Source: Trypanosoma brucei
Lineage: Eukaryota
Length of the DNA stretch: 64,000 bases
Direction: 5' to 3'
Assembly: GCA_000002445.1 (NCBI GenBank)
Contig: CP000071.1
Coordinates: 928,001-992,000, forward strand
The position numbers and the translations under genes are program-made. This document shows, in pieces, positions 45,301 through 64,000 of this stretch. Each line of letters opens with the position of its first letter. Positions within the stretch are counted from its first letter, which is position 1. The notes beneath the pieces were generated by a model, which saw nothing but the letters and a program-made list of their open reading frames with translations, was not told where the DNA came from and did no database searches.

Positions 45301-48300
45301 TACATGACACTGACAACCGCACTACAGTTGCACCGAGGAGGGCTTCCGCAGGGTCCTGCAGGAACAGGCAAGACGGAAACTGTGAAGGATCTTGGCAAAG
45401 CTATCGGCAAGTACGTCATGGTGTTCAACTGCTCTGATGGTCTAGATTACAAATCTGTTGGTCGGATGCTCAGTGGTATTGCGCAAACGGGTTCGTGGTC
45501 GTGCTTTGATGAGTTTAACCGTATTGAGGTGGAGGTGCTTTCTGTTGTGGCGCAGCAGATTCTGTCAATCCTCACAGCCGTTTCCGAGCGCAAAGATCAT
45601 TTCCTCTTCGAAGGTTCAGACATTCCACTCAACATGAACTGCGGTCTTTTCGTCACAATGAATCCGGGTTATGCGGGGCGGTCGGAACTCCCTGATAACC
45701 TTAAGGCGCTACTTCGTCCCATTTCCATGATGGTACCAGATTTCGCACTTATTTGCGAAATTACTTTGTTGTCAGAAGGCTTTGAGGAGTCAGAAACTTT
45801 ATCGAAAAAGGTTTCGATTTTGTATGAGCTCATGGAAAAGCAGCTCTCGAAGCAGGATCACTACGATTTCTCCCTCCGTAACATCAAGGCGGTGTTGGTT
45901 CAGGCAGGTAACCTGAAGCGTGAGGGATTCCCGGGGACGGAGTCTCAATTGTGCCTCAAGGCAATGAACGATATGAACCTTCCCAAATTTGTAAAGGATG
46001 ACGTGCCGCTGTTTGTTGGAATGCTGAATGACCTTTTCCCTGGTGTTGAACCCGGTGATAGTGGACTGGGTGCTCTCCAAGAAGCCGCTGAGAAAGAATT
46101 GGATGCAGAGGGACTTGAGGTTAACGCACATATAGTGGTAAAGACGCTGCAGTTGTGGGACACCCTTCGTACCCGCCATGGTGTGATGGTTGTTGGGCAA
46201 ACGGGATCGGGTAAGACGGTGACCTGGCGTAACCTTAGTGGTGCTCTACGGCTTCTGAAGGAGCAGAATCTGGAACCTGGGCTGTACGAGCCTGTTAGGG
46301 TGTCATTACTGAATCCCAAGTCTGTCACCATGGATGAGCTATACGGCAGTTACAACCAAGCTACACGTGAATGGAAGGACGGAATTCTTTCGGACCTCAT
46401 GCGGCAGATTTGCCGTGACATAACGGACACGGCATATAAGTGGATGTTATTCGATGGTCCGGTTGATACGTTGTGGATAGAGTCCATGAACACTGTTTTG
46501 GACGATAACAAGATGCTCACACTTAACTCGGGTGAACGTATTACCCTTAACTCAACCGTCCGAATGATGTTTGAGGTTCAGGATTTATCGCAGGCCTCGC
46601 CCGCAACCGTTTCTCGTTGTGGTATGGTTTACTTTAACGTTGAGGACCTCGGGTGGATGCCGTTCTTTAAGACGTGGTTGAAGTCACGTTGGAAGTTTGA
46701 AATCACGATGGGCGCGCCGAGGCCCGACGATACCATCAGCGAACTGCAGGAGTATGTGAAGAACACAGTTACGCGCGTTCTGGAGTACCGAGCCCATGAG
46801 TGTGTTGAGTTGGTTCCAACTACCACCTTAAACGTCGTCCGGTCTTTCACGCGTATGTTAGACGCGCTTGCGAGCGTGGATGCTGAACCGTTTGTTCCTG
46901 AAGCCGCGCACTACGCTACTTCTCACGCAGGTGAAAACTATCTTCCCCAGTTGCGGATTCTTGCGACGTTCTGCCTCATGTGGTCAGCCGGTGGTTCCCT
47001 CACGACAGAATCCAGACAGAAGCTTGATGCCTTCATTCGTGAACTGGACTCCTCCTTCCCGTCCACAGAGACTATTTTTGAGTACTTCCCCGACCTGGGT
47101 GGCCTGCAGTGGAAGAATTGGAATGAACACGTGGACCTTCAGAAAACGTATATGCCAGCCACCGGCACCCCATACCACAAGTTAATTGTCCCTACTGTGG
47201 ATACTGTGCGTTACGAGTATATTGTGAGTCAGCTTGTACGCAGCCAAGTACAGTTGGTGCTTGTTGGGACAACTGGTACTGGAAAGTCTCTCATCGCAAG
47301 GCAGGTGCTGGCTAACCTTAGTAACGATGTGTATGTCACGACCCAGCTGAACTTCTCTGCACAGACGACAGCAGGTAACGTTCAAGACATTATTGAAGGA
47401 CGCATGGAACACAAATCAAAGAAAGTTTGCTGTCCACCGGGTGGTCGCCGTATGATTTGCCTTGTAGAAGACTTGAACATGCCGGCCAAGGAAAAGTTCG
47501 GTGCTCAGCCACCACTGGAGTTGTTACGTCAATGGTTAGACAATGGTTACTGGTACGACAGGAACACACGAGGAAGGCGAACCGTCAACGACCTCCAGCT
47601 GCTTTGCTGTATGACGTATGGCCGGCCAGACATCACGCCGCGGCTAATGAGTAAACTCAATGTGTTCAACATTACGTTTCCTTCAGAATCCGTCATCACG
47701 AAGATTTTCACTTCGATTCTTATGTACCGCTTGGAGCCGTATCCTGAGCTGCATAAGCTCGTGAACTCTGTTGTGAAAGCAACTCTTCAGACCTATCAGA
47801 AGGTGTCAGCGGATTTGTTGCCAACTCCGAGTAAGTCGCATTATTTGTTCAACCTTCGTGATCTCAGTAAAGTCTTCCAAGGCATCTACGGTTGCCACAT
47901 GGAATACCTTCAATGTAAGGAGCATATGGTGGCATTGTGGGCCCACGAATGTTTCCGTGTGTTCTCCGATAGAATGAATGATCCAAATGACAAGGCGTGG
48001 TTCAAGAACCTCATTTGCGAGAAGTTGGCAGATATCTTTCAAACTAAGTGGAACAACATCATTCGTGCACGTTCGCGCGACTCCCGCAACCAGGCAGTGG
48101 ACGAGAAGGAGAACCCTCTGTTTGTTGACTTCTGGGATGGCGAGTATGACGAGATGGCAAAGTACCGCCTTGTCCCCTCATTAGAAGCCCTCCGCGACAA
48201 GGTGGAGGAATACCTCGATGCCTATAATAGTGAGCCCGGTGCGCGGCAGATGAATCTCGTCTTTTTCACGGACGCCCTTGAACATCTTTGCCGCATCCAC

Positions 48301-51300
48301 CGTATCGTACGTCAGCCACGAGGTAATGCGCTTCTAGTGGGGCTCGGCGGTAGCGGCAGATATTCGCTTACGCGACTCGCCACGTACCTCGCGGGGTACT
48401 CGATATTCTCCATTGAGACTCACAAGAAGTATGACTTGGATCGCTTCCACGAGGACCTTCGCTCGCTTTACAAGGGATGTGGGCTGAAGGGTCAGCAGAG
48501 GGTCTTTTACTTCTCCGACAATCAGATCATGCAACCGGCATTCTTGGAGGACCTCAACAACATGCTCTCGACGGGTGAAGTGCCAAATCTGTTTCCTAAG
48601 GACGAGTTGCAGAATATTCGTGACACAGTATGCAAGCAGGCGATCGCGAGCGGGTACCGTGACACACCAGACGAGATGTACAACTTCTTCATCGACCGAG
48701 CGCGGACGAACCTTCATCTCGTGGTAGCTATGTCCCCCGCTCACAAACTGTTCCGCGCGCGCCTGCGCCAATTCCCCGCGCTGGTGTCATGCACGTCGAT
48801 CGACTGGTTTGTGGAATGGCCCAGTGAAGCGCTTCGTGAGGTCGGCTTACGTTACCTTCAGGAAACGCGTGAAAATAAGGAGGATGACGAACACCTTGGC
48901 ATCATTTCAGACTTCTTCGTTTATATGCACTACACAACCAGCACACTTTCGCGGGAGATGTTGGAGCAGGTACACAGGTACAACTACGTAACGCCCTCTT
49001 CTTACCTTGACATGGTGCGTGGGTTCCGCAGAATGCTAACACAGAAGCGGGACGAAATAATTGAGCAACGTGATAAGCTGGCGAATGGTATGGCAAAGCT
49101 CGAGGAAACCAAGCTGGCGGTGAGCAAAATGACTGAGGAGCTCAAAGTGCAGGATGCCAAATTGCAGGAAAAAACGGAGGAGGTAAACCGTGCGACGGAG
49201 AGTATCAAGGTACAGCAACAGAACGCGGAGGAACAGCAGAGTTTGCTCGCATCAGAGAAGGTAAAGATAGAACAAACGAAACGATCTGCGTTGGCTGACC
49301 AGGCGGAGGCTCAGGCGGATCTGGATCGTGCTATGCCCACACTATTGGAGGCGCAGAATGCCCTTGACAAACTTGAGAAGAACGATATTAACGAAATAAA
49401 GTCGTACAAAACGCCCGCCGCGATGATTCGGACAGTGATGTACGCCGTGCAGACGACACTGCGACGGAAGCTAGAGTGGGACGAGGCCAAAAAGTCGCTA
49501 AGTGAGCCTAAGTTCATTGATATGCTGAAGCACTATCACGAGAACAATGATATGACGGACCAGCGCCTTCTGGATAAAATTGAAAAGTATGTTAAACGTC
49601 CGGATTTTACTCCCGCTGCAGCAAGTGCTGTGTCTAAGGCTGCTGGTGGTCTTTGCCAGTGGGTGATAGCAATTCATAAGTATGGTAACATTTATAAGGA
49701 GGTGCATCCCAAGATTGTCAAAAACGAAAATGCGCAGCAGAAAGTCCGGGCCCAGGAGGAGATGCTTCGGCAGAAGGAAGAAAAGTTACAAAGGATTATG
49801 AGTGAAGTCAAACAACTAGAGCTTGCTCTGCAGCAAAATGTAGATGAGAAGATGCGCCTGATGCAGGAGGCGAAGGAGACGCAGATGAAGCTCGACCGAG
49901 CACGTATTATTGTTGATGGTTTGGAAGGTGAACAGGACCGGTGGATTGAGTCAATTGCCCGTTACGAGGCTGCTCTCGGCACGCTCGTTGGGGATGCCCT
50001 GCTTGTTTGTGGTTTCTTGTGCTACGCTGGTGCTTTTACTGCGGACTATCGGCAAAAACTGTGGTTAAATTGGATTAAGGAGATTAAGCGGCTGCAAATT
50101 GCAATATCGAAAAATTTCGACTTCGTGGAATTTCTTGCCGATCCAACTGAAGTGCGTGACTGGCAGCAGGCTGGTCTTCCTGGCGACGACTTCAGCAAGG
50201 AGAACGGTGCGGTGGTGATGCGAGGAACCCGGTGGCCTCTTATGATTGATCCACAGTTGCAGGCGATTAAGTGGATCAAGCGAATGGAAAAAGATAAGGG
50301 TCTCAAGGTTATTGATCAGAAGCAGCCGGACTTTCACAAGACGGTGGAGTACGCCGTCCAATTCGGTTGCCCATTACTTCTGCAGGATATTCTTGAGGAA
50401 ATCGATCCTCTGCTTGACTCAGTGCTTTCCAAGGCGATCGTGCGCAAGGGGGCGAAGCCTATTTTGAAGATTGGTGACAACTACGTGGAATACAACGACA
50501 ACTTCAAGCTTTACATAACGACACGCCTGCCGAACCCTCACTATACGCCCGAGATATGCAGCAAGGTCTGCTTGCTCAACTTTGCTGTACGAGAAACTGG
50601 CTTGGAGGAGCAGCTGCTTAAGATTGTGGTAGAGAAGGAGAAGCCTGAACTGGAGCAAGACAACGAGCAGTTGATTCTCGACACCGCCGAAGCGAGGAAG
50701 GAGACAAAACGTCTGGAGGATGAAATCCTCAACCTGCTCTCTACTTCACAGGTGTCGTTGTTGGAAAATAAGAAGCTAGTGGATACTTTGCAGTCGGCGC
50801 GTGTTATTGCAGCGAACATTAAACAACAGTTAAAGGAGGCGGAAATTACCGCGGAGAAGATCCACAGTGCCCGCGAGCAGTACCGTGAATGTGCCCGCCG
50901 CGCCTCTATTCTGTTCTTTGCGCTTGCTGATCTGGGGTCTATCGATGCCATGTACCAGTTCGCTCTTGATTCGTATATCGTTTTGTTCCAGGGCAGCATT
51001 CAACGGTCCGCGCAAAAAATCGCCACCCACACCCTAGAAGAGCGTGTGCGAACGCTCAATGATTGGCACACCAGCGCCGTCTACGCGAACACATGCCGAG
51101 GGTTGTTTGAGAAACACAAGCTGCTCTTCACGTTTCACATGACGATCCGTATCTTGCAGGCTGAAGGTCTGGTGAATATTGAAGAATATGTCTTCTTGAT
51201 GCGCGGTGGTCAAGTTCTGGACAAGCAAGGACGTTTGCCGAACCCTGCACCTTCGTGGCTTTCTGAGCGAGCGTGGAGCCACATCCTTGAGTTGGACAAG

Positions 51301-53409
51301 TTGACAAACTTCCACGGCGTTGCCGCGTCGTTTGAGCAAGCACAGGAGTCGTGGAAGCACTGGTTCTTGCAAGAGAACCCTGAAGACGCTGAGCTTCCAG
51401 ATGACTGGCAGACACGTACGGCAGACAATTACATCCAGCGCATGATATTTGTGCGTTGCCTTCGTCCTGATCGGGTTATATTTATGGTGTACGAATTCAT
51501 CGAGAAGCAACTCGGGCCTCAGTTCGTGGATCCTCCACCGTTCAATCTCAAGGACACCTTCGAGGAAAGTACCAATGTTGTGCCACTGGTATTTGTACTC
51601 TCCCCTGGTGTTGATCCGACCACCCAACTGGCGGCACTCGCGCAGCGCGAAGGACGCCCACTGAAAACACTGGCGCTAGGGCAGGGTCAGGGTGAGAATG
51701 CTAAGCGCGCTGTTCAGGAATGTTCACAGGTAGGCGGCTGGGTGTTCTTGGCGAATTGTCACTTAATGGTGTCCTGGTTGGTAGAATTAGAGAAGATTAT
51801 TGAGGATCTGGTGGAGCAACGGCCACATAAAGAATTTCGTCTGTGGCTCAGCTCGGTCCCCACAACACAGTTTCCTATCGGTATCTTGCAGCGAGCGATC
51901 AAAATGACTACAGAGCCTCCCACTGGAATCAAGGCGAATATGTTGCGGCTGTATAACCAGTTTTCCGAGGAGCAGTTCGCGGAGCACACGGGCTCTAATC
52001 CACAGATCTACTGCAGTCTTCTCTTCGCGCTCTGCTTCTTCCACTCTATACTTCTGGAGAGGCGCAAGTTCGGTAACCTTGGGTACAACGTTGTATACGA
52101 TTTCACCACTTCCGACTTCGAGGTGTCCGAGAACATTATTGCTCTGTACATTGGCAACATGGCAACTGACCGAGTAGAGGACATACCATTTGTTACTATT
52201 CGCTACCTTATAGCGGAAGCCTCATACGGTGGTCGTGTGACAGATGACTGGGACCGTCGTGTGATCAACACATACATCTCTCAGTTCATGTGCCCAGCAA
52301 TCCTGACGGAAGAGCGATATCCACTTTCGGCTGCCGAGGAGTACTACATTCCCTCAGGGATCAGCACACTTCAGGCCTATAAGGACGAGTGCTCGTTGCT
52401 TCCCATCACCGATCCACCAGAGGCTTTTGGTCAGCATACGAACGCGGATATTGCCAGCCGTGTGGCGGAGTCGACAATGCTTCTTGACAATCTCATCAGT
52501 GTTAACAAAACTCTGGCTCGTGGTGGCGGCTCCTCTGGGGGCGCATCCAAGGGTATGTCAGAGGAAGCACGTTGTTTAGAAATTCTCGCGTCACTGGAGG
52601 AACCAAGCAAGACAGCCATACCTAATCCCATTGACTACGATGCCGTCTACGAGTCTGTCAAGGAAGACACCAACAACGCGCTGAATACCTGTCTGTTGCA
52701 GGAAATTCAGAGGTACAACGTTCTACTTCGAAAGATAATCGTGCAGAAGAGGGAACTGCGCCGTGCTGTGAAGGGTGAAGTTTTGATGACCGATGAGCTA
52801 GAGGCGGTGTTTAATGCCCTTCTGTTGAGTCGCGTACCGCCGCCGTGGACGAGTGCATACCCCAGCATGAAACCTCTTGCGAGTTGGGCTGTTGATCTTG
52901 TGGAACGAATAGAGCAGATGAAACAATGGGGCCAGCGCGTGCCAAACGTGTTCTGGCTCTCTGGCTTCACATATCCCACAGGTTTCTTGAAAGGCCTGCA
53001 GCAGCAGCAGGCGCGTCATGACCGTATATCCATCGACCAGTACACGTGGGAGTTTGTTGTGCTTCCAAGTGAAGAGCGAACGATTGTCAACCGTGCCAAA
53101 AAAGGTGCGTACGTGCGCGGCATATTCCTTGAGGGTGCAGGCTGGAATGAAGAAATGAACACCCTTTGCGAACCGCGGCCACTAGAGCTTATAGTGCCTA
53201 TGCCTATTATCCACTTCAAGCCGAAAATACGGGACACTAAGCCGCGACCTCCTACTATTTATGAATGCCCACTTTACATGTACCCCTTGCGTACCGGTAC
53301 GCGTGAACGACCCTCGTTTGTTGTTGCCGTTGATCTCGAGTCTGGCGAAGCGGTACCTGAGCACTATACAAAACGTGGTACAGCGCTGCTACTCTCTACA
53401 GATGAGTAA
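39385..53409 (+). CDS. dynein heavy chain (4674 aa), axonemal-type
   Basis: The full motor is present: AAA1 Walker A [19 protein letters not shown] (~45352), AAA2 GQTGSGKT (~46200), AAA3 GTTGTGKS (~47270), AAA4 GLGGSGRYS (~48345); a coiled-coil stalk (~49050-49950); AAA5-6 and a C-terminal domain. The AAA1 block [32 protein letters not shown] carries the DYKS/AQTG pattern seen in axonemal rather than cytoplasmic heavy chains. Single uninterrupted exon. Confidence 0.93.
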   Translation: [4674 protein letters not shown]

Positions 53410-53430: not shown

Positions 53431-54291
53431 AACTCTACACATTCCCTTAATCTTGATTTTCTTCGTGTCTCCTATTTACGTATTTGCAGTGTCCACTCAA
53501 GTGGATGTTGCCGTGGCCGTTATTCTGTGAGTTTACTTTTTTTTTTTGCTGTTGTTTTCGGTCTTGCGTGTCGCCGTCGTTGTTGTTTTTAAATGATAGA
53601 CATTTTTTTTTCTTCTGTATCTGTATGTCGATGTACGTAACAGCCTCCAACGTTACTTTATTTCCTGTGAGGCCAAGCAATTAGAAGAGAGACGAAGTAA
53701 GATGGTGCAAAGGAATTTGTGGCACTAGGAACAAGAGAGGAAAGAAAGTAGTAAAAAAAACACCAATGATAGAGTTGATGTAAATAATAAAGAAAGAGCA
53801 AGCTGTGTGTGCAGCACCGCAGCAACCATCCCTGTTTTTGTCCTTGTTGCCAAGGACCTTTCTCTTTCCCCTCCCACTGCGTCCAATGTTTACTCACGAT
53901 AACACTATACAATTAGATGTGGCATATGTTTTCTGTTACCAAGAGAAGGAAAAAGGCAAAAAAAGGATTCAAACAGTTGGGTCCATGAATCAAAAAGTGG
54001 GACAATTTAACCATTCGCATTTACCTCCCGTGTTTACACCGTTGAATTTTACTCGCGGAGGGGCAGCAGCAGCTGTTGCCTGCGCTCATCGCTATTGTAT
54101 TGTGTTGTGCACTCGTGGGTCTTCTCTTTCGCTCTCATGTTCTTCTTTTTCTCTTCCTACCCTTTTCATCTCAACGCCGGAGCTTCCGCTGTTGGTGGCT
54201 GACCATTTTAGGTTTTGAAACTGTAGGATAAAACCAGTCCCCTTTCATAGCACATATCATTTAGTTATCAACTCCACTTTTGCAGGGGCGT

Positions 54292-54378
54292 GTGCGTGTG
54301 CGTGTGTGTGCGTGTTTGTTTGTGTAAAGTCGCAACTTCGATTGTTTTCTTTTTTTTTTTGTGTGTGTGTGTGTGCGC
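54292..54378. repeat. interrupted (TG)n/(GCGTGT)n microsatellite with T11 run
   Basis: gtgcgtgtgcgtgtgtgtgcgtgtttgtttgtg ... tttttttttttgtgtgtgtgtgtgtgcgcc, immediately 5' of the YceI-like ATG. Confidence 0.85.
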
Positions 54379-54394
54379 CCTCTTTTTTACAAGG

Positions 54395-54982
54395 ATGGGT
54401 TGGGGAAGCAGTGAAGAGCGACTTAGCAGCACCAGCAGTGAGTTGCGCGGTGTGGACATGTTTGTTTACACCCTTCCAAGTGGTGTACTCGGGCGTTTCA
54501 TCGGTCGCGCCCTGCGGTTCCGTGTGGATCGCTTTAACTTTAGCACTGGCCCAAGCGCTGATGGGAATGATAAGCGCCGGAGCCTTAAGAGTGTGGAGGT
54601 GGAAGCGAATTCATTATCACCTCTCTGTGAAGTGGACAAGTTTCAGTTTGAACGACTTCCATTAACGGTGTCTGAAATTGTGCGATTAGAGCGCCGCACG
54701 CGTGACTATGTGTTAGATGTCACGCGGTATCCACGTATTTTATATACAGTTGAGGAGGAAACACCAACGGAAGTGAAAGGCACGTTGGAGCTGCGTGGCG
54801 AACGGAAGGCAATCACGTGTACGAAATCAGTGGAAGGACCGGAACTAATTGTGCGTTGCCCAATTGATACCCGAGAATTTAATATCCCATCGTATTCACT
54901 CATGTATGGCGTGTTTGGTGTCTCGCCTCATGTACAGGTGGAAACCCGCATTCCACTTAGAGCGGTTCAACTGCAAGGTTGA
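54395..54982 (+). CDS. YceI-like (polyisoprenoid-binding beta-barrel) domain protein
   Basis: Blocks align to the YceI family: FVYTLPSGVLGRFIGRALRFRVDRFNF (cf. FKVKHLMVTTVTGRFKDFDGTFTFD); DYVLDVTRYPRILYTV...KGTLELRGERKAITC (cf. YPTITFKS...GDLTIHGVTKPV). The ORF-track GTG start at 54290 runs through a (TG)n microsatellite; the ATG at 54395 is used instead. Confidence 0.55.
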   Translation: MGWGSSEERLSSTSSELRGVDMFVYTLPSGVLGRFIGRALRFRVDRFNFSTGPSADGNDKRRSLKSVEVEANSLSPLCEVDKFQFERLPLTVSEIVRLERRTRDYVLDVTRYPRILYTVEEETPTEVKGTLELRGERKAITCTKSVEGPELIVRCPIDTREFNIPSYSLMYGVFGVSPHVQVETRIPLRAVQLQG

Positions 54983-55521: not shown

Positions 55522-56127
55522 ATGGAGTCCCTTGTACGTGACACCGACCTCACTGTTAGCGCACACACTTGTGAGGAATCGAACACTCACGGTCTATCGA
55601 AGCTCCTTCTCACACATTTAAAACTTGACAATATAATTCTTGAGTCGGTCAGTTGCGTTGGTCGGGGCCATAACGGGGACGCGCGAAGCCAATGGTGGTC
55701 CCTTTCTGCAGGTCATTTGGGAAAGTGGTGTCATAACCAACACGGTACACTTCATGGAGGGTTATGCCTTGCAATTTTATGCGCTCTCTCCAAGGCTCAT
55801 GTGGCAATGTATATAAAGCTGCATTGCGCCAATGGGAGTGTCACTACTGGAAGGAATGAAGGGATAACCACGGGGGGATCCTCAACGCCTTCAGTACTCG
55901 GAGTACATATTCAATATCTATTGCCAGTTGTAACGACCCACTCACTGAAAGTTTTAACAAAAGTAAAGTGTGAGGAAGATGCGGTAGTACGCGTGGATGC
56001 GGTACTGTTTAGAGCAGTTGATGTGGAGAAGCAGCAGCATGGAGGGCATTTACTTGGTGGGTGCTCACCGTTATGCAAAGCCACCATCAATATGAAGCGA
56101 CAGCAGAAGCGAATATGTTCATTGTAA
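55522..56127 (+). CDS. hypothetical ORF (201 aa), coding status doubtful
   Basis: ATG ORF filling part of a 1.7 kb spacer. Gly/His/Cys-rich, no motif. Could be UTR. Confidence 0.2.
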   Translation: MESLVRDTDLTVSAHTCEESNTHGLSKLLLTHLKLDNIILESVSCVGRGHNGDARSQWWSLSAGHLGKWCHNQHGTLHGGLCLAILCALSKAHVAMYIKLHCANGSVTTGRNEGITTGGSSTPSVLGVHIQYLLPVVTTHSLKVLTKVKCEEDAVVRVDAVLFRAVDVEKQQHGGHLLGGCSPLCKATINMKRQQKRICSL

Positions 56128-56693
56128 TGGGTTTTGGTGTCGCTTATTCCTTTCTTTTTTTTTTGTCATTGGTGGGTATGTGTGCCTCCACCTCTTCAGT
56201 CAACATCCTTCCTCCCCTCCAACAACAACAACAAGGACGAGAAGCGGTGATTGAGCGATAGTTTACCTCTGTCAAGCATCGATTTTTGTTGCCGGGCACT
56301 CAGTTGTATCGCTCCCTCTCTTTTGTTTCTCTCTCCATTTATATTTTCACTTGCTTTCCGTTGGTATTACGCGTTTTCCCTCTGCACCTCAACATGGTTC
56401 CCATGCAAAGGGAGTGTGAGGCAGACGATTTAGTTACCTCAATTCCTGTGGTGCAAACGCGTATAAAGGTCATCAATAAGACATTAAAAAGGAAAAGAAG
56501 AATTCTGAGGGAGGAGGGAGGAGGGGGCGGAGTCGCTTATAAAAAAGAAAGCGAAGAAGGAAACACGCAACGACGAACTGAAGAAGGGCATCGTGATATT
56601 TGATTGTGTCACGAAGGGACCGACAGCTCTCCACAGACTCATTATTACTTTCACATGAAGGGAGGCGTGGGAAGGAGTACTGCTGCGCCACAG

Positions 56694-57758
56694 ATGGAAT
56701 TTGTGCGTGCCGTAATTGTTGGTTCCGGTTCGAGCAGCAGCACGCCCATGCTTTCTTGTGCACTTTCCGGTTCCCCATGCCCCAATTGTGAGGAGGCTCT
56801 CCGTTGTAGTGGTAGCAAAAATCATCGCTTGAACCCCTCTTTCCTCATACAGCTTTACCATCCGACGGATCGTACAGTACACAACATCCTCATTGACTGC
56901 GGTAAGACGTTCCGAGAGTCGGCACTAAAGGTTTTTCCTTCGTTTCTTGTCCGCGATTTCAGTGCCGTATTGCTCACGCATGACCACGCCGATGCTTCGT
57001 ATGGCATTGACGACCTCAGGGAGTTTAGCCGTAAAGATGTTCCTATCGGGGTGTACGCGGATGAGACAACGCTCGCAGCCATGAGAGGGGTTTACCCTTA
57101 CTTGTTCGCAGAAGACATGCGCAGCAGAGGCGCTGGGGAACCAGCTAAGAAGGAAGTAAAGAAGAATAAGTTTGTCGCCACCATCAATTGGGAGTTATTC
57201 ACCAGAGTCGAACGAATGGATGTGGTGTTTTCTCCACGGCCGAAGGGGGTGACAACTGGGAACGAGGGCGATATTGCTGATGGGTGTGAAACTGGGGCAC
57301 CCGCGGTGTGGTCGTTTGTGCCCGTTGGCGTTCCGCACGGTGAGAATTATCGTGCAAACGCTTTTCTTGTGCCGATGCATGACAAGAGCGAGTCGCCGCG
57401 ACTGCTTTTGTACGTTTCAGATATTAGTGAGTTGGAGGACCGATTTTTCACGGACTTGGCGCGCTCTAAGGTGTTGCTTGGCGTTGACCCCGCTGTCCCC
57501 ATTGAGGTACTGGTGCTGGACATGTTATCACGGAGGCCATACGTCGCTCATCTGCACGTGGAAGCGTCCATTGCCGCTGCAAAAAGGATCAATGCTGCCA
57601 AAACGTATTACGTCGGTATGTCACATAGGATAAACTACGATGAGATGATGCAGGAGCTTCAGCAGCTAGGTTTGGGTGCCACAATGGAAATGGGATACGA
57701 TGGCTGTGTTGTCTCCGTCGGAGACTCGGGACTGCAGCACCTTAGTGGACGTTTATGA
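56694..57758 (+). CDS. metallo-beta-lactamase-fold hydrolase (PhnP/ElaC-like MBL superfamily)
   Basis: N-terminus MEFVRAVIVGSGSSSSTPM (the typical MBL start, M..I.LGtGsS.G.P). HxHxDH zinc motif as LTHDHADASYGIDDL. Downstream conserved Asp/His residues. The ORF-track TTG start at 56604 was corrected to the ATG at 56694; the ATG at 56655 is also possible. Confidence 0.7.
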   Translation: MEFVRAVIVGSGSSSSTPMLSCALSGSPCPNCEEALRCSGSKNHRLNPSFLIQLYHPTDRTVHNILIDCGKTFRESALKVFPSFLVRDFSAVLLTHDHADASYGIDDLREFSRKDVPIGVYADETTLAAMRGVYPYLFAEDMRSRGAGEPAKKEVKKNKFVATINWELFTRVERMDVVFSPRPKGVTTGNEGDIADGCETGAPAVWSFVPVGVPHGENYRANAFLVPMHDKSESPRLLLYVSDISELEDRFFTDLARSKVLLGVDPAVPIEVLVLDMLSRRPYVAHLHVEASIAAAKRINAAKTYYVGMSHRINYDEMMQELQQLGLGATMEMGYDGCVVSVGDSGLQHLSGRL

Positions 57759-58080
57759 CATCACAGCCAACTGTTTTTGTTTTTTGAAGTTCAAATAAGC
57801 GCACCGATTGCTTATTGAGGGTTTTTATGGAAGTACCAGTTGAATTATCCAAAAGTACTTGTGTCGATGCATGCGGGAGGAGCGGGTTGGAAACTCGGCT
57901 ATTGGATGGGCCGAAGGCGTGGGTTGGCTTTTGAGTGTCAGGGAGTGCATGATTCGGCGTAGCGGAAGTTTGGCACGTTGCCTCATGGCTATTTAACAAC
58001 ATTTTTCTTATCAGGTGCGGGTTAGCTTGCAACTTCGCTCAAGAGACCTCTTTTGCTGGGCAATGACATTACGTCGGCAC

Positions 58081-58140
58081 TATTGTTTCCTTCCGTCTTA
58101 TTATTGTTATTGTTATTGTTTTTTTTTTGTTTTGTTTTGG
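58081..58140 (+). promoter_or_regulatory. polypyrimidine tract and candidate AG acceptor upstream of REV3
   Basis: The tract ttattattgttattgttattgttttttttttgttttgttttgg is followed by the first downstream AG (58142-58143), ~100 nt before the REV3 ATG. A 2-codon uORF (atgtgctaa at 58218) precedes the main ATG. Confidence 0.45.
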
Positions 58141-58240
58141 AAGGAAAAACGATAAAGAAAAGGATCAAAAGGGGGAGGGCAACAATAAGAGGGCACAGGG
58201 TGGGTTGATAGGACTTAATGTGCTAATACACACGGGGGCT

Positions 58241-61200
58241 ATGAACTTGTACGTAGTCTCCATTGAATACACACTTCAACGGCCGAATGCCGCTCTTGGA
58301 GACGCCGTCATGTCCCCTATGTTTCGTCGTGTTTCTTCCCGGTGCCCCATATTGCATATCTTTGGCTACACAACCACTGAAGGGAATGACAGAGCAGCTG
58401 GAGAAAAGAGTTACGTTCCGCGTGAGGCGGCAATATCTGAAAGTAAATTAGATAGCATACAACGGTACAGTGTTTGTGCTCATATTCACGGTGTGTATCC
58501 ATACTTTTTTGTGCAGCGTAGCAATTCGCGGATATCCGCTATGCAGTTTGGAACCCAGCTTGAGTCGGTTGCTATGGAGGCACTGAGCTCAGGACACAAC
58601 AAGTCAGCAGCTGCTCCGCGTCCCCATGATCGACAACAGCTGATACATCACGTTGATGTGGTTTGGTTGCTCCCCTTCTATGGTTATCACGGAAAGAAGC
58701 AGCCATTTTTTAAAGTGTACGTGGTTGACCCAGCGATGGTTAGCCGTTTTTTGCACCTGTTGTACTGCACAAAGCACATGGGTGGCCGGCAATGGTTGGT
58801 ATATGAGGCCCACTCACCATTTCACTTCCAGTTTATGGCGGATTATGGAGCAAAGGGAATGGGTGCCTTCTTCATTCCCTCCTGCACCGCGCGGTCAAAA
58901 CTTCCCGACAGTGTGCAGCCTGAGCAACTGAACATCGCCGCCGTGCGACCCGAAGGGGAGCCCGCCAGGCTTAGTTGTGCTCAGATTGAGGTTGATGTGT
59001 CGGCATCATCGTTGCGTTTCCGCGACGGAGCCGTGCAACCGGGCGAAAACCTGCTAACCGCCAGGCGCAACGTTCGGCAGTATTTTGCAGACCTTGGTGT
59101 AGATGATGCTGTGTTACGGGGGTGCACCTCTGGGTTGCTTGCGCGTCGTTTCACTGTTAGTGACCAACAACGTTGTGACCTTGGGGCCGTTTTGTTGCGT
59201 AAGCGCTTTAATGAGTCTCTTAAAGCAAAATTCACAGATCCCGTTGTTGAGGAACAGGAGAAAGTGGATAGCCCCGTCGGCGTTACACAACAATTAATGG
59301 AAGATATGCAAGGGATCGTCGGCGAGGTCCTACTTCCGGATTCATCTCCGGGATGCTTCTCCGCACCGCAACATTCGCTGCACAATGATCAGGGCGAAGT
59401 GGGAACATCACAGGACCCCCTAGTGCCTCCAGGAGTGACTAGTGAGCAGGGAGGATGTGACGAAAGGGAACGACCTCTCCCGCGTTGTAGATCCTCTGAC
59501 ACACCGTTACCAGGCAATGATTATGTAGAAGGAATGTCACCAAGGGGTGAGGACGAACCGAGTGTACTGTTCCCATCGACCCTCAGTAGTGACGGCCCTG
59601 GAAGTAGTAGTAATACTAACGCTTGTGGCTGCAGTGTTGAAAGTAGTAAGGGGGGAAACGAGGTTGCCCTTGACGCCCGTCTGCGGAACGACTGTGGCGA
59701 CAGTGACAGGAATTGGAGAGAATCTCTTTCAGTTGGCGACACGGTTGCCATTGCGTCAGAGGAGTCACACGACACAACTACAGCAAAATCTTGCCTGTTT
59801 GCCAAGATCGTGTGTTTAGGCACCAGCAGTGTCCGCCTGCGGTGGTATGTTGCGTTAAGCGAGACCCATCTCGCTGACTGTCAGGATGAACTCGAGAAAC
59901 GTGGTTGTTGGTTGGGCAAAGGAACGAAACTTGGTGGGTGTACTCCCGTCGCACAAGGTTACCAGGAGGAACTGTTACTTGGAGATGTGGAGGATATAAA
60001 TTCGATTAGTGTGCTCAGGCAGGGCCCACCCATAGTGGTTCACCACTCTTACCACAGTTTCATTCATGACAGAAACTGCGGTAAGATCATCGGTGATGGT
60101 GATTGTTTCATTTCCATTGCACTGCTCTGTAGGTATAATTACCATGTTCGTGAGCGGCGGCTTTCGGCCATCGAACCTCGGGGGGATGATAATTACGTGG
60201 CGATGCCCGCGTTGCTCCTTCAGTCTACGCCATGTGCTTCCAGTGATGATGAAAGCTCTCTCCTTGCTGAAGTGGCGGATGAAGATGAAGAGCTCTTCTC
60301 TTCACTTTCTTTATCACCTCCTCCAGACGGGTGCGAGCTGTGTACATTTCCACACCAACGGGCCCCGTCCAGACCGAGTGGATCGGATCACAGGGTGAGC
60401 GGGAATAATTTCAAGCTACCCGAGGGGTTGAGGCGTTCCGTATCGAAAACAATGCAGTGCGCTGTGCAATCGCAGTTGTCACTACTTCAAAGTTTTTCAG
60501 TCTGTTGCTCACTTTCACCACGTATTCGGGAACCTGTCTCTCCGTCTGTTGTAGCTATAAGCAGCGGTGTGACGAGACCTTCTTGTGCTCTTTCCTCTTC
60601 GTCTGTCGAGTGCGTGGACCCGCAACGCGAAGCTCTGTTAGTGGAGTTTAAGCGTGAGGGTTCGTGTGTGCGGTGTTCTAATCTTATTGGAGATATACCC
60701 CGAAATTTCATCTGGAGGTTTGATCCAATTCAAAGACGTGTGGTTATATCCGGAGCAACGTGGCCACGAGTGGTGGCACTCGCTCCGAAGCTTCCACCAC
60801 CAACGAAATGTGTTTCCTCCCTGTTGAAGCGACCCTCAGTTCAACTTCTCACACGCATAGCACATTCGCAGGATTTGACGCCACCAGAAGGCGCCCACAC
60901 AGTTGCGGCAAAACAGGAATGGTGCCCGCATGGCTCCAGCAGTGGATCCCGCTCTCAGCGCCACTCCACTCGTCTCATATGTGCTCTGCGTGTGATGTTG
61001 GTCGAGGTGTTTCTTCATCGCAGGGACGGCGTGCAGCATGTTGCACAAGAACGTCTTTTGGCTGTCGGATTGGGCCGAACGACGTCAATTGATGAGAGGG
61101 TCAAAGTGCGGCTTTTTTGTGTGACGGGGCTCTCACAAAAAGTCCCGGTGGGCCAACCACGCGTGAGCCCATTTAGTGGTGCGGTGGAGGTGGTCCAGTT

Positions 61201-64000
61201 GCCGTCAGAGGAGCACTTGCTGAGGCACGTCATGTGGGAAATTCGAGCTTATGATCCCGACGTTATCATATCCTGGGAGGTGGGCAGAAGTGGAATAGGG
61301 CTGCTGGCGCTGCGCTACAAGATCGCGCTTCGCCGCTCGCTCGCGCGTGACTTATCACGCTTGACGCCAGATAGCGCACTGTTTAACCAGAGAAGCGAGA
61401 ACATACATCTTAATCCCGAAGAGAAACCCTCTAATAGTAGTGACGAAAATATTAGTGAGGTCGAATGCGTATCCCCTTCCTCTGACTCATCACACTCTTC
61501 TTGCTCGGAGTCAACACTGTTCTCCACGGGCAGTGGGGCAACTGCTGCTACTACTAGGGGTTCTGTGGCACATGTTAGAGGTGGGTCGACCAATGCACAT
61601 CCTAATCTTGGCGATTTGACGAAGCAGCTCTCCCGTCGTTTTGGTGGAAGTCCACAGGTAGCCGGGAGAATCATTGTTGATCTTAGCAAGTATTTGCGCA
61701 AATATCTTCAGCTGCCGTCAACTACCCTACAGATGGTATATAAGAAACTGTTCAACAGCAGCTTGCCCTTCTTTACTGACGTCGCCCTCACGCGGATGTA
61801 TTGTGCGGGAGAAGCGGGTATGCAACGTGTTTTTATGTCGATTCTCCTTACACGTGTCGTCGCCCCGCACCGCATCGCCCAGCATCTGCACTTCTTCACC
61901 CGCACAGCGGAGTTCGCCCGCATGTTTGGAATTCTGTTTAGTGAAGTTTTAACCCGTGGGAGTCAATACCGCGTGGAAGCCACGTTACATCGCATGGCGA
62001 AGCCCATGGGTTTTGCGCTGCTTTCACCACCACTGGAAGTTGTACACCGTCAACCGCGGTTGCAGAGTATGCCACTGATAATGCAACCACGCAGTGGCTT
62101 CTACAAGGACGACCCCGTTGTTGTTTTGGACTTCCGCAGTCTGTATCCAAGTATTGTTATAGCTTACAACATCTGCTACACAACCTGTCTTGGTTCTGTG
62201 GGGAAAGGTGTGTATGGACGCTTGGGTGTGCTCAAGTCGTACAAACGAGACGACATGCTTCTTTCCTCACTTCTCAGTGGTCTTGCGGACACCAAGAACG
62301 ACCACAATGGCAAAAACGACGACAATGAAAACAGTAACACACTACACGGCGTGACATTTACGCCCAACGGATGTATGTTCTTAACTCCGGAGAATCGTGA
62401 GGGTGTGCTACCTCAGATGCTTCGTGTTTTACTTGACACCCGCGTGGATCTGCAGGCAGCTCTGAAGCATGTGGCTCACCCCTTCGGAGACATTTACATG
62501 CAACAGATCTTGCAGGAACAACAGATGGCTATTAAAATGCTTGCCAATACAACCTATGGTTACACCGCAGCTTCCTTTACTGGACGTATGCCGTGCGCCG
62601 ATGTGGCTGACGCTATTGTCATGCTAGGACGCCAGACGTTGGAGCGAGCCATGTGGTTAATCAATAGTCACCCCGTTTGGAAGGCAGAAGTTGTTTACGG
62701 CGACACGGATTCATTGTTTGTGCGTCTACCGGGGAGAACCAAGGAAGAGGCATTCGCAGTAGGAGAGGAGATGGCTAAAGAAGTGACAGCGGTTAACCCA
62801 GCTCCCGTGCGCCTGCAATTCGAGAAGGTGTTGTTTCCTTGCCTTCTCCTAGTGAAGAAACGTTACGTGGGGTATGCCTATTTCAAGCCCGAACAACAGG
62901 AGCCGCAATTTTTGGCAAAGGGAATTGAGACGGTTCGAAGGGACCAGTGCCCAGCCACTGCGCACCTTGCTGCAAAAATGATTCACCTTCTCTTCTCCGG
63001 GGCAGGCACTGAAACCTTGCGACAGTGTTTCTATGAAGAAGTAAGTAAATTGCAACGTGGAGACTGCAGTCCAGTTGACTGCATATTTCGGAAGGCTGTG
63101 AAATTTGGAAGGTATAAACCCAATGGGCGTTTACCAGCAGCAGCGCGTCTCGCGGCATTGCTTGTGGAGAAGGATGCCATGAGGACTCCTTACTGGGGGG
63201 AGCGCATACCATTCGTCGTAATTCGACGGCCGGAATCCACACGATTAAGCGATCGTGTTGTCCACCCCCAACAGCTGCTGAGTGATGAGGATCATCTTAT
63301 GCTTGACAGTGAGTACTATATCACACGACACATTGTTCCTACGCTCGACAGGATGTTTTATCTGGTTGGTGTGAGTTGTGGCCGCTGGTATGCGGAGATG
63401 CCTCGGGGTCGTACTTACCAAAACTACTTTGAACTGGGATTAAGTATTGCTGCGACAAAAGCCGCCAAGCGGGCGCGAGGAGTGGCGACGCCCCCTACTT
63501 TGTGCGCTGATGTCATTAACGTTAATATTTCCAATGCCAATCACGGTAATGAAAGGTTCAAGAGAAAAGGTAGGGGTAAAGGTAAAGGTGGCAGTGGGCT
63601 GCTTGGAAATCAGTCGGCGAGGGGTGCGAAAAATCGAACCCTTGATTCATATTACCAGCAGACTCTATGTGCTGTATGCCTCACAAACTCAACAGCCACC
63701 TCACCGACTGACCCTCCAGTTTGCAAGGGATGTCTTGAAAATTTATCAACCACCGCCCAACGCGTGACGTCACGACGTTACCGCGTGGAGCGCCACCTAC
63801 AACTTATGAAAATGGCCTGCTTGCGATGCATAGGGACTTGTGGTGAGGTGGGTGGGCCGGGTTTTCTATCCAGTCGGAAGAGGGATATGGAAGATATGAA
63901 TTTCTGCATCCCGCATAGCCTTGCTGCTGCACCTGACCGTGGCGTTCACGACGCTGGTGTTGTGGTGCGACGGTGGGGGAAACGTCAGCAGAAGCTTCAG
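58241..64000 (+). CDS. REV3: DNA polymerase zeta catalytic subunit (REV3), 3'-partial; runs off the window end
   Basis: Frame 2 is open from the stop at 58064-58066 to the window end, so it is absent from the ORF track. N-terminal pol delta/zeta-type block PILHIFGYTT...HIHGVYPYFFV. A ~2 kb low-complexity insertion follows. Exonuclease-like region ~61100-61900. Family B motif A DFRSLYPSIVIAYNICYTT (~62135), motif B KMLANTTYGYT (~62535), motif C VYGDTDSLFV (~62695). CysA C-x2-C...C-x2-C (~63668-63737) and CysB cysteines (~63815-63909). Start is 58241 (MNLYV...) or 58310 (MSPMFRRV...). Confidence 0.85.
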   Translation, partial: MNLYVVSIEYTLQRPNAALGDAVMSPMFRRVSSRCPILHIFGYTTTEGNDRAAGEKSYVPREAAISESKLDSIQRYSVCAHIHGVYPYFFVQRSNSRISAMQFGTQLESVAMEALSSGHNKSAAAPRPHDRQQLIHHVDVVWLLPFYGYHGKKQPFFKVYVVDPAMVSRFLHLLYCTKHMGGRQWLVYEAHSPFHFQFMADYGAKGMGAFFIPSCTARSKLPDSVQPEQLNIAAVRPEGEPARLSCAQIEVDVSASSLRFRDGAVQPGENLLTARRNVRQYFADLGVDDAVLRGCTSGLLARRFTVSDQQRCDLGAVLLRKRFNESLKAKFTDPVVEEQEKVDSPVGVTQQLMEDMQGIVGEVLLPDSSPGCFSAPQHSLHNDQGEVGTSQDPLVPPGVTSEQGGCDERERPLPRCRSSDTPLPGNDYVEGMSPRGEDEPSVLFPSTLSSDGPGSSSNTNACGCSVESSKGGNEVALDARLRNDCGDSDRNWRESLSVGDTVAIASEESHDTTTAKSCLFAKIVCLGTSSVRLRWYVALSETHLADCQDELEKRGCWLGKGTKLGGCTPVAQGYQEELLLGDVEDINSISVLRQGPPIVVHHSYHSFIHDRNCGKIIGDGDCFISIALLCRYNYHVRERRLSAIEPRGDDNYVAMPALLLQSTPCASSDDESSLLAEVADEDEELFSSLSLSPPPDGCELCTFPHQRAPSRPSGSDHRVSGNNFKLPEGLRRSVSKTMQCAVQSQLSLLQSFSVCCSLSPRIREPVSPSVVAISSGVTRPSCALSSSSVECVDPQREALLVEFKREGSCVRCSNLIGDIPRNFIWRFDPIQRRVVISGATWPRVVALAPKLPPPTKCVSSLLKRPSVQLLTRIAHSQDLTPPEGAHTVAAKQEWCPHGSSSGSRSQRHSTRLICALRVMLVEVFLHRRDGVQHVAQERLLAVGLGRTTSIDERVKVRLFCVTGLSQKVPVGQPRVSPFSGAVEVVQLPSEEHLLRHVMWEIRAYDPDVIISWEVGRSGIGLLALRYKIALRRSLARDLSRLTPDSALFNQRSENIHLNPEEKPSNSSDENISEVECVSPSSDSSHSSCSESTLFSTGSGATAATTRGSVAHVRGGSTNAHPNLGDLTKQLSRRFGGSPQVAGRIIVDLSKYLRKYLQLPSTTLQMVYKKLFNSSLPFFTDVALTRMYCAGEAGMQRVFMSILLTRVVAPHRIAQHLHFFTRTAEFARMFGILFSEVLTRGSQYRVEATLHRMAKPMGFALLSPPLEVVHRQPRLQSMPLIMQPRSGFYKDDPVVVLDFRSLYPSIVIAYNICYTTCLGSVGKGVYGRLGVLKSYKRDDMLLSSLLSGLADTKNDHNGKNDDNENSNTLHGVTFTPNGCMFLTPENREGVLPQMLRVLLDTRVDLQAALKHVAHPFGDIYMQQILQEQQMAIKMLANTTYGYTAASFTGRMPCADVADAIVMLGRQTLERAMWLINSHPVWKAEVVYGDTDSLFVRLPGRTKEEAFAVGEEMAKEVTAVNPAPVRLQFEKVLFPCLLLVKKRYVGYAYFKPEQQEPQFLAKGIETVRRDQCPATAHLAAKMIHLLFSGAGTETLRQCFYEEVSKLQRGDCSPVDCIFRKAVKFGRYKPNGRLPAAARLAALLVEKDAMRTPYWGERIPFVVIRRPESTRLSDRVVHPQQLLSDEDHLMLDSEYYITRHIVPTLDRMFYLVGVSCGRWYAEMPRGRTYQNYFELGLSIAATKAAKRARGVATPPTLCADVINVNISNANHGNERFKRKGRGKGKGGSGLLGNQSARGAKNRTLDSYYQQTLCAVCLTNSTATSPTDPPVCKGCLENLSTTAQRVTSRRYRVERHLQLMKMACLRCIGTCGEVGGPGFLSSRKRDMEDMNFCIPHSLAAAPDRGVHDAGVVVRRWGKRQQKLQ

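What the first reader, a model, noticed from the sequence alone, without database searches (positions are those of the whole stretch)
54395..54982. Bacterial-type YceI-like lipid-binding protein encoded in a eukaryotic array
YceI-family beta-barrel proteins are predominantly bacterial. A ~195-aa homologue sits here with the conserved N-terminal FxVxH..V..V.GxF and central YPxIxF...GxLxxxGxxKxV strands, and no obvious signal peptide. Either it is a widely conserved kinetoplastid YceI-like gene or an old horizontal acquisition. In either case its ligand is uncharacterised; ubiquinone or a polyprenyl, as for bacterial YceI, is a guess.
Basis: partly seen in the sequence, partly recalled or inferred. 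Interest (0 to 1): 0.5.

Follow-up and report, generated by a model that had tools for sequence, protein, structure and literature searches.

The report
Leaderless YceI-fold lipid barrel, Trypanosoma brucei
The ORF is a real, conserved Trypanosoma brucei gene for a small YceI-type beta-barrel, a bacterial lipid/isoprenoid-binding fold; public databases already give it that name, so it is an ordinary finding whose ligand remains untested.

Summary

- **Identity.** Window 54395-54982 (+) encodes a 195-aa protein identical to T. brucei TREU927 XP_847157.1. UniRef and a T. equiperdum annotation already name it as YceI-like.
- **Sequence evidence.** Pfam YceI is only just above threshold (25.7 vs 23.7 bits) and covers the C-terminal half only. 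Full-length homology comes from hhalign (99.9 %, E 1e-31) to a bacterial YceI subgroup without a signal peptide.
- **Motifs.** The central motif is present only with Y-for-F and I-for-V.
- **Distribution.** The gene sits in a conserved order (dynein heavy chain, YceI, metallo-beta-lactamase, REV3) in other kinetoplastid-like contigs. Some environmental and read-archive contigs carry tandem paralogues. The closest named prokaryotes are Myxococcota. An old bacterial origin is plausible but unresolved.
- **Clade-specific changes.** A conserved His is replaced by Arg. A Cys-x-Lys / Cys-Pro signature is inferred to face the barrel interior.
- **Function.** Cytosolic carriage of a long-chain isoprenoid or lipid is inferred, not shown.

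The parts
54395..54982 (+). Complete CDS (195 aa plus stop) of the YceI-like beta-barrel protein. It is identical to T. brucei TREU927 XP_847157.1.
   Evidence: Pfam YceI; fold
54395..54454 (+). N-terminal extension, residues 1-20. It is hydrophilic and net acidic. It is conserved within Trypanosoma (W3, E7, R9, E16 invariant). A short strand is predicted at residues 8-11. It is not a signal peptide.
54455..54691 (+). N-terminal half of the barrel, residues 21-99. The Pfam model does not match it, but it aligns to bacterial leaderless YceI proteins. It contains R38, where 109 of 111 bacterial-type relatives have His.
54689..54952 (+). C-terminal half of the barrel, residues 99-186. This is the stretch matched by PF04264. 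It includes YPRILY (112-117) and GTLELRGERKAI (129-140).
54818..54862 (+). Codons for C142-T-K144 through C155-P156, on the predicted hairpin 136-158. This signature is specific to the eukaryote-like clade. It is inferred to be a cross-strand Cys pair plus a Lys on the interior face of the barrel.
   Evidence: inference; no coordinates were available
54283..54394 (+). Upstream (GT/GC)n and poly-T/pyrimidine tract with AG dinucleotides. This is the kind of sequence that directs trans-splicing in trypanosomatids. The exact acceptor site was not determined.
   Evidence: sequence read directly; the role is inferred from general kinetoplastid biology
39385..53409 (+). Upstream neighbour: a 4674-aa axonemal dynein heavy chain. 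It carries the IQ-like motifs that the paper's table lists beside IAD1-beta, Tb927.8.3250. It serves as the synteny anchor.
   Evidence: synteny
56604..57758 (+). Downstream neighbour: a metallo-beta-lactamase-fold protein (Lactamase_B_2). It is a synteny anchor. The true start codon was not determined.
58067..64000 (+). Downstream neighbour: an open frame for a REV3 / DNA polymerase zeta-like protein that runs off the window end. It is a synteny anchor.

Best explanation
The ORF is a genuine, vertically maintained kinetoplastid gene. It encodes a soluble protein without a signal peptide that has the YceI-type antiparallel beta-barrel fold.

It belongs to a distinct YceI subgroup in which the bacterial members, found in Myxococcota, also lack a signal peptide. 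The intracellular location is therefore probably a property of the subgroup, not a eukaryotic adaptation.

The most likely mode of action follows the solved YceI proteins, whose barrel tunnels hold octaprenyl phosphate, octaprenylphenol or ubiquinone-8. The barrel interior would take up one long hydrophobic molecule, such as a polyprenyl or quinone lipid or another long-chain amphiphile. The protein would buffer or carry that molecule in the cytosol.

In the trypanosomatid lineage the interior face has become partly polar. It carries R38 in place of a conserved His, K144 in place of a hydrophobic residue, and a cross-strand C142/C155 pair. This suggests a ligand with an anionic or thiol-reactive head group.

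What is shown: gene reality, family and fold membership, conservation and synteny, and absence of a leader peptide. What is inferred: cytosolic location, that a ligand is bound at all, the class of ligand, and the inward orientation of the Cys/Lys/Arg residues.
For: **Gene reality**
- Exact match to an annotated T. brucei protein.
- Orthologues of 55-64 % identity in six other Trypanosoma species.
- The same order, dynein heavy chain then YceI then (metallo-beta-lactamase) then REV3, in other contigs.
- Dynein heavy chain then YceI in an environmental contig whose copy is 34 % identical.
- YceI x2, Nucleotid_trans and REV3 together in a further contig.

**Family**
- PF04264 at 25.7 bits against a gathering score of 23.7.
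- All 10 relatives tested score above the PF04264 gathering cut-off (25.1-50.6 bits).
- The best PDB profile hit is the H. pylori YceI 3hpe, E 0.016.
- hhalign of the Trypanosoma profile against the bacterial leaderless profile gives 99.9 %, E 1.2e-31, over residues 18-187.

**Fold**
- AF2 model with pLDDT 92.8 and pTM 0.88.
- All 15 Foldseek hits with E<=1e-3 are YceI-family structures.

**No leader**
- for the T. brucei protein.
- Bacterial relatives start directly at the first strand.
- Those relatives occur in Polyangiales and Nannocystis genomes.

**Ligand precedent**
- Isoprenoid lipids occupy the tunnels of most solved YceI structures (PMC9113575).

**Interior signature**
-.
Against: - No experimental datum on ligand, location or phenotype was found. 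Literature searches for YceI together with Trypanosoma, Leishmania or kinetoplastid returned nothing relevant.
- The Pfam hit is marginal and partial.
- The inward orientation of C142, K144, C155 and R38 rests on hydrophobic periodicity and predicted strand register. It was not checked on coordinates.
- A Lys and an Arg inside the tunnel could mean that the canonical all-hydrophobic isoprenoid site is lost.
- There is no cytochrome b561 partner next to the gene, unlike many bacterial yceI/bcnA loci. Gene adjacency carries little functional meaning in kinetoplastids in any case.
Confidence: 0.6

Rival explanations
1. The gene entered an ancestor of Kinetoplastea, or of Euglenozoa, by ancient horizontal transfer from a bacterium carrying the leaderless YceI subgroup, such as a Myxococcota-like bacterium. 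It then duplicated in tandem and was reduced to one copy in trypanosomatids. This concerns origin, not mechanism, and is compatible with the best explanation.
For: - A profile built only from Trypanosoma proteins retrieves, after the eukaryote-like sequences, more than 100 leaderless proteins of about 170 aa.
- The named genomes holding such proteins are Polyangiales, Myxococcales and Nannocystis.
- In a neighbour-joining tree the eukaryote-like sequences form one group nested among the bacterial ones.
- Tandem arrays are present in L007, L013, L016 and L018.
Against: - Bootstrap support for a single eukaryote-like clade is weak: 16-30 % for any one definition, and about 52 % summed over variants that differ in two rogue taxa.
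- The tree is distance-based and rooted on a single secreted outgroup.
- Most of the 'bacterial' and 'eukaryote-like' labels are inferred from sequence style, not from known genomes.
- Named non-kinetoplastid eukaryotes could not be sampled.
Confidence: 0.4
2. The barrel is not a passive lipid carrier. It is a redox or detoxifying quinone-holding protein, like the model proposed for BcnA with its cytochrome b561 partner. The clade-specific Cys pair would act as a thiol/disulfide switch or would react with a bound quinone or lipid electrophile.
For: - The C142/C155 pair is present in 35 of 38 eukaryote-like members against 2 of 111 bacterial-type members. A Lys replaces a hydrophobic residue two positions after C142.
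- The predicted hairpin register places the two Cys opposite each other.
- A quinone-based detoxification role has been proposed for BcnA (PMC9113575).
Against: - The argument is purely positional. No coordinates, no chemistry and no partner protein were identified.
- Cysteine is also an acceptable hydrophobic lining residue.
- Three clade members lack one of the two Cys.
Confidence: 0.2
3. The ORF is a chance open frame or a misannotated non-coding stretch between the dynein and metallo-beta-lactamase genes.
For: The window contains many spurious ORFs of similar length, including some on the opposite strand of real genes. The Pfam score is close to threshold.
Against: - Orthologues exist across Trypanosoma with 68 invariant columns and no frame disruption.
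- The position is syntenic in divergent kinetoplastid-like contigs.
- 322 homologues have E<=1e-3.
- A confident fold is predicted.
Confidence: 0.01
4. The protein has a different small beta-barrel fold, such as lipocalin, FABP or nitrobindin, and only resembles YceI locally.
For: The first, shallow model (pLDDT 76) gave only TM 0.5-0.65 to YceI structures. FABP and lipocalin structures appear lower in the Foldseek lists.
Confidence: 0.02

Closest known systems
Classical periplasmic or secreted YceI proteins: E. coli YceI (1y0g), T. thermophilus TT1927b (1wub), H. pylori HP1286 (3hpe), B. cenocepacia BcnA/BcnB (5ixh/5ixg), P. aeruginosa antibiotic-sequestering protein (7bwl)
   Same: - Same Pfam family, PF04264.
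- Shared C-terminal motif: (Y/F)P.I.F ... G.L.L.G.
   Different: - Only 12-20 % sequence identity.
- No signal peptide, so not periplasmic or secreted.
- The N-terminal half is too divergent for the Pfam model.
- No adjacent cytochrome b561 gene.
- Polar and thiol residues are inferred inside the tunnel.
Leaderless bacterial YceI subgroup: proteins of about 170 aa with the motif 'VYTFKEGLLSA.AHDLKLRV', found in Polyangiales and Nannocystis genomes
   Same: - Full-length homology: hhalign 99.9 %, E 1e-31, 26 % identity.
- Same absence of a leader peptide.
- Same strand-by-strand hydrophobic periodicity.
   Different: - The His conserved in 109 of 111 members is Arg in the T. brucei protein.
- The bacterial members lack the Cys-x-Lys / Cys-Pro signature.
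- T. brucei has a 20-residue N-terminal extension and a longer loop at residues 52-63.
Public annotation of this very protein and its orthologues: UniRef 'Lipid/polyisoprenoid-binding YceI-like domain-containing protein'; T. equiperdum 'YceI-like domain containing protein, putative'
   Same: Identical sequence and identical family call.
   Different: The annotation is automatic. It says nothing about the leaderless subgroup, the synteny, the His-to-Arg change or the Cys pair. No functional paper was found.

Membership tests
YceI-like domain (Pfam PF04264) | Whole-protein score at or above the Pfam gathering threshold | tested here: met
   25.7 bits against a cut-off of 23.7, E 1.7e-5. Only profile positions 62-148 are matched. 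All 10 relatives tested also score above the cut-off (25.1-50.6 bits).
YceI-like domain (Pfam PF04264) | Homology over the whole domain, not just one motif | tested here: met
   hhalign against the leaderless bacterial group gives 99.9 %, E 1.2e-31, over residues 18-187. Members of that group hit PF04264 at 1e-10 to 3.5e-13, and one (P0051) covers profile positions 12-147.
YceI-like domain (Pfam PF04264) | Extended antiparallel beta-barrel of the YceI/TT1927b type | tested here: met
   [not shown]
YceI-like domain (Pfam PF04264) | Isoprenoid or other lipid held in the barrel tunnel | not testable with these tools
   No coordinates or ligand data were available. The precedent comes only from the literature (PMC9113575).
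Classical periplasmic/secreted YceI (E. coli YceI, BcnA type) | N-terminal signal peptide and export | tested here: not met
   The N-terminus is acidic and hydrophilic, with no hydrophobic core; the maximum 19-residue Kyte-Doolittle mean is 1.0.
Classical periplasmic/secreted YceI (E. coli YceI, BcnA type) | Genetic linkage to a cytochrome b561 gene (yceJ/lcoA) | tested here: not met
   The neighbours are a dynein heavy chain, a 201-aa ORF, a metallo-beta-lactamase-fold protein and REV3. Linkage is not expected in a kinetoplastid polycistron.
Leaderless YceI subgroup (Myxococcota type) | No leader peptide; first-strand motif (V/I)(Y/F)T..(E)G(L)L; conserved 'HDL' at the start of the second strand | tested here: inconclusive
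   The absence of a leader and the 'VYT...G.L' motif are present. The His is replaced by Arg (R38) and one residue is inserted. Nine positions are invariant or more than 90 % conserved across the subgroup alignment (G30, L107, P113, G129, L131, G135, P187 among them); T. brucei has the conserved residue at all of them.

The most novel reading that the evidence does not exclude
The kinetoplastid proteins define a eukaryotic offshoot of a leaderless, Myxococcota-type YceI subgroup that was acquired by ancient horizontal transfer. In this offshoot the lipid tunnel has been rebuilt. It now carries a cross-strand Cys pair, a buried Lys and, in trypanosomatids, an Arg in place of a conserved His. 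The result would be a cytosolic thiol-dependent sensor, carrier or detoxifier of a quinone or prenyl-phosphate lipid, not a passive periplasmic lipid sponge.
Probability: 0.15. Interest if true: 0.5.

Novelty: already known. Interest (0 to 1): 0.25.

Why it matters
As it stands this is a correctly recognised but already annotated family member, so it changes little.

It would matter modestly if followed up. No intracellular YceI protein, bacterial or eukaryotic, turned up with a known ligand or role in the literature searched here. Trypanosomatids depend on ubiquinone, dolichol and prenyl lipids, whose intracellular carriers are, to my knowledge, poorly known. The gene is single-copy and conserved across the Trypanosoma species sampled, and mammals, to my knowledge (not tested here), have no YceI homologue. 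A ligand identification would therefore give a first function for the whole leaderless subgroup.

Tried and rejected
- **NCBIfam scan:** no hit.
- **Single-sequence PDB search:** only chance-level hits, to CpcJ and small heat-shock proteins.
- **Word-indexed homologue searches with two broader alignments:** Leishmania, T. cruzi, Bodo and non-kinetoplastid eukaryotes therefore could not be named.
- **Degenerate-pattern genome scan with alignments A3 and A4:** The single-protein scan found only six loci.
- **afdb50 fold library:** unavailable.
- **Neighbourhood of the myxobacterial homologues:** nothing informative, only DUF3095 and unassigned ORFs.
- **Spliced-leader search in fetched loci:** no match; these are genomic contigs.
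- **Upstream ORF of L018:** not a dynein heavy chain.
- **SRA run identifiers:** not found in the literature.
- **Gene ID searches:** found no paper mentioning the presumed ID Tb927.8.3260. The TrypTag supplements held here do not contain it.
- **Targeting signals read directly from the sequence:**
  - N-myristoylation was rejected. G2 is not conserved in orthologues, and W3 is, by my recollection of the PROSITE N-myristoylation pattern, disfavoured at that position.
  - PTS1 was rejected: the C-terminus is -LQG.
  - A mitochondrial presequence was rejected: the N-terminus is acidic.
- **Rfam and tRNA scans of the window:** empty.

Full report
**1. What is at the coordinates**

Window 54395-54982 on the + strand is an ATG-to-TGA open frame of 195 codons. 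Its product is identical, residue for residue, to XP_847157.1 / AAZ13091.1 of Trypanosoma brucei brucei TREU927. It differs at one position from the T. b. gambiense protein.

The window is therefore T. brucei nuclear DNA, on a 2.48-Mb contig. All large ORFs lie on the + strand, as in a kinetoplastid polycistronic unit.

The upstream gene (39385-53409, 4674 aa) is an axonemal dynein heavy chain. It contains the IQ-like motifs LQAIHRRLV, LQVVERMLP and IQALTKEPQ, which the published table lists in the rows beside IAD1-beta = Tb927.8.3250 (the flattened table does not tie them to that gene unambiguously). By numbering convention the ORF would be about Tb927.8.3260, but I could not verify that ID.

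**2. Is it YceI-like?**

*Sequence.* Pfam PF04264 is hit at E 1.7e-5 with 25.7 bits, just above the gathering score of 23.7. The hit covers only the C-terminal half: residues 99-186, profile positions 62-148 of 150. NCBIfam gives nothing. A profile of eight Trypanosoma orthologues finds the H. pylori YceI structure 3hpe as its best PDB sequence match, at E 0.016.

*Exhaustive search.* An HMMER search with that profile against 1.84 billion representatives gave 322 proteins at E<=1e-3. After the kinetoplastid-like orthologues come more than 100 proteins of about 170 aa. These begin directly with the first beta-strand ('..A.L.VYTFKEGLLSA.AHDLKLRV') and have no leader peptide. Those tested hit PF04264 at 1e-10 to 3.5e-13, and one (P0051) covers almost the whole profile. 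A profile-profile comparison of the Trypanosoma alignment with 24 of them gives 99.9 % probability, E 1.2e-31, over residues 18-187. The N-terminal half that Pfam misses is therefore homologous as well.

*Structure.* With only eight sequences AlphaFold gave pLDDT 76. Even then, all seven Foldseek PDB hits below 1e-3 were YceI proteins. With a 37-sequence alignment the model reached pLDDT 92.8 and pTM 0.88.

- Foldseek agrees.

**3.

The N-terminal motif 'FxVxH..V..V.GxF' is not in the protein. The central motif is present only in relaxed form, as YPRILY and GTLELRGERKAI.

The family assignment is not new. UniRef names the protein and its orthologues 'Lipid/polyisoprenoid-binding YceI-like domain-containing protein', and the T. 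equiperdum annotation reads 'YceI-like domain containing protein, putative'.

I found no paper on a kinetoplastid YceI-like protein.

**4. Distribution and origin**

Orthologues of 55-64 % identity exist in T. congolense, T. vivax, T. conorhini, T. melophagium, T. theileri and T. grayi. They share 68 invariant columns.

More distant members lie in the same gene order:

- P0009 sits between a dynein heavy chain and a family-B DNA polymerase.
- P0017 sits in the order dynein, YceI, Lactamase_B_2, DNA_pol_B. This is exactly the order in the window, where 56604-57758 is Lactamase_B_2 and 58067-64000+ is REV3-like.
- P0018, which is 34 % identical and comes from an environmental metagenome, again follows a dynein heavy chain.
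- P0035 lies in a contig with a second YceI copy, a Nucleotid_trans gene and REV3.

Several contigs from environmental metagenomes and public read archives carry tandem arrays of two or three paralogues (L007, L013, L016, L018). The organism names of these contigs are unknown.

The only named prokaryotic relatives I could retrieve are from Myxococcota: a closed Polyangiales chromosome, a Myxococcales MAG and two Nannocystis genomes. There was also one unclassified proteobacterial MAG and a weak Albibacterium fragment.

In a neighbour-joining tree the eukaryote-like sequences form one group nested among the bacterial ones. Bootstrap support is weak:

- 16-30 % for a given definition of the group, and about 52 % summed over variants that differ in two rogue sequences.
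- 44-67 % for the Arg-type orthologue clade.

An old bacterial acquisition is thus plausible but not demonstrated. The two follow-up searches that could have named other eukaryotes were defeated by the candidate cap.

**5. Lineage-specific features**

These rest on alignment statistics, and the orientation is inferred.

*His to Arg.* At the start of the second strand, 109 of 111 bacterial-type members have His ('HDL'). In the eukaryote-like group the residue is Arg in 21 and His in 12. All Trypanosoma orthologues have Arg, R38 in T. brucei. In L007 an Arg-type copy sits next to two His-type copies. This suggests that the Arg type arose by duplication and is the copy retained in trypanosomatids.

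*Cys/Lys signature.*
- C142 and C155 are both present in 35 of 38 eukaryote-like members, against 2 of 111 others.
- K144 is K or R in 35 of 38 members, where the bacteria have hydrophobic residues in 79 %.
- P156 is Pro in 29 of 38 members, against 8 of 111.

*Inferred position.* The bacterial sequences show strict hydrophobic alternation. This places residues 140, 142 and 144, and residues 153, 155 and 157, on the hydrophobic face, which is the barrel interior. The predicted hairpin (strands 136-147 and 150-158, with a turn at G148-P149) pairs residue 142 with 155. The eukaryote-like clade thus probably has a cross-strand Cys pair and a Lys lining the tunnel. I could not check this on coordinates.

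**6. How it most likely works**

According to the literature, most solved YceI barrels hold an isoprenoid lipid in the tunnel: octaprenyl phosphate, octaprenylphenol or ubiquinone-8. BcnA also binds other hydrophobic molecules, and with a cytochrome b561 it is proposed to detoxify lipid peroxyl radicals (PMC9113575).

The T. brucei protein has no signal peptide, no hydrophobic segment, no PTS1 and an acidic N-terminus. The default expectation is a cytosolic protein.

My best explanation is a cytosolic single-lipid carrier or buffer for a long-chain isoprenoid-type or amphiphilic ligand. The Arg, Lys and Cys residues would shape a polar or reactive head-group site. The fold and family are well supported. 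The location, the existence of a ligand and the class of ligand are inference. A redox or thiol-based role is a minority alternative.

**7. Verdict**

The finding is real, correctly interpreted in its essentials, and already annotated. It is a member of a known family with no functional data. The points added here are:

- membership of a leaderless subgroup shared with Myxococcota;
- deep synteny across kinetoplastid-like genomes;
- tandem paralogues in environmental and read-archive contigs;
- the His-to-Arg change;
- the Cys-x-Lys / Cys-Pro signature.

Interest is low to moderate.

Noticed in passing
window 54818-54862 (codons for C142-K144 and C155-P156): The Cys-x-Lys / Cys-Pro signature is specific to the eukaryote-like clade: both Cys occur in 35 of 38 members against 2 of 111 bacterial-type members. 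It is inferred to form a cross-strand Cys pair plus a Lys on the interior face of the barrel.
   Followed up: partly
window 54506-54508 (codon R38): A His conserved in 109 of 111 bacterial-type relatives is Arg in all Trypanosoma orthologues. An Arg-type copy and His-type copies sit side by side in locus L007.
   Followed up: partly
L007 5295-7893; L013 676-2572; L016 190-1577; L018 1749-3126: Tandem arrays of two or three YceI-like paralogues occur in unnamed environmental and read-archive contigs, whereas T. brucei has a single copy at the syntenic site.
   Followed up: partly
window 55522-56127 (+): A 201-aa ORF lies between the YceI-like gene and the metallo-beta-lactamase-fold gene. It has a 'GTLHGG' stretch reminiscent of hot-dog thioesterases, but only a sub-threshold Pfam 4HBT_3 hit (E 0.14). 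The syntenic locus L015 has no called gene of comparable size at that position. It is unclear whether this is a real gene.
   Followed up: partly
window 56604-57758 (+): A metallo-beta-lactamase-fold protein (Lactamase_B_2) ends in -GRL, which could be a PTS1-like tripeptide. A TrypTag supplementary table lists Tb927.8.3270 under 'glycosome', but I could not map that ID to this ORF.
   Followed up: no
window 58067-64000 (+): A long open frame, at least 1978 codons, runs off the window end. It has DNA_pol_B, POL3_N and REV3_N domains, which indicates a DNA polymerase zeta catalytic subunit.
   Followed up: yes
window 39385-53409 (+): A 4674-aa axonemal dynein heavy chain carries the IQ-like motifs published for the T. 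brucei dynein heavy chains, listed beside IAD1-beta (Tb927.8.3250). Its adjacency to the YceI-like gene is conserved in divergent kinetoplastid-like contigs.
   Followed up: yes
window 37642-38454 (+): A 270-aa ORF with a fatty acid hydroxylase domain (PF04116, E 1.7e-24) lies just upstream of the dynein gene.
   Followed up: no
window 54283-54394: A long (GT/GC)n run followed by a poly-T tract lies immediately upstream of the start codon. It is probably the polypyrimidine and trans-splice acceptor region; the acceptor site was not mapped.
   Followed up: no
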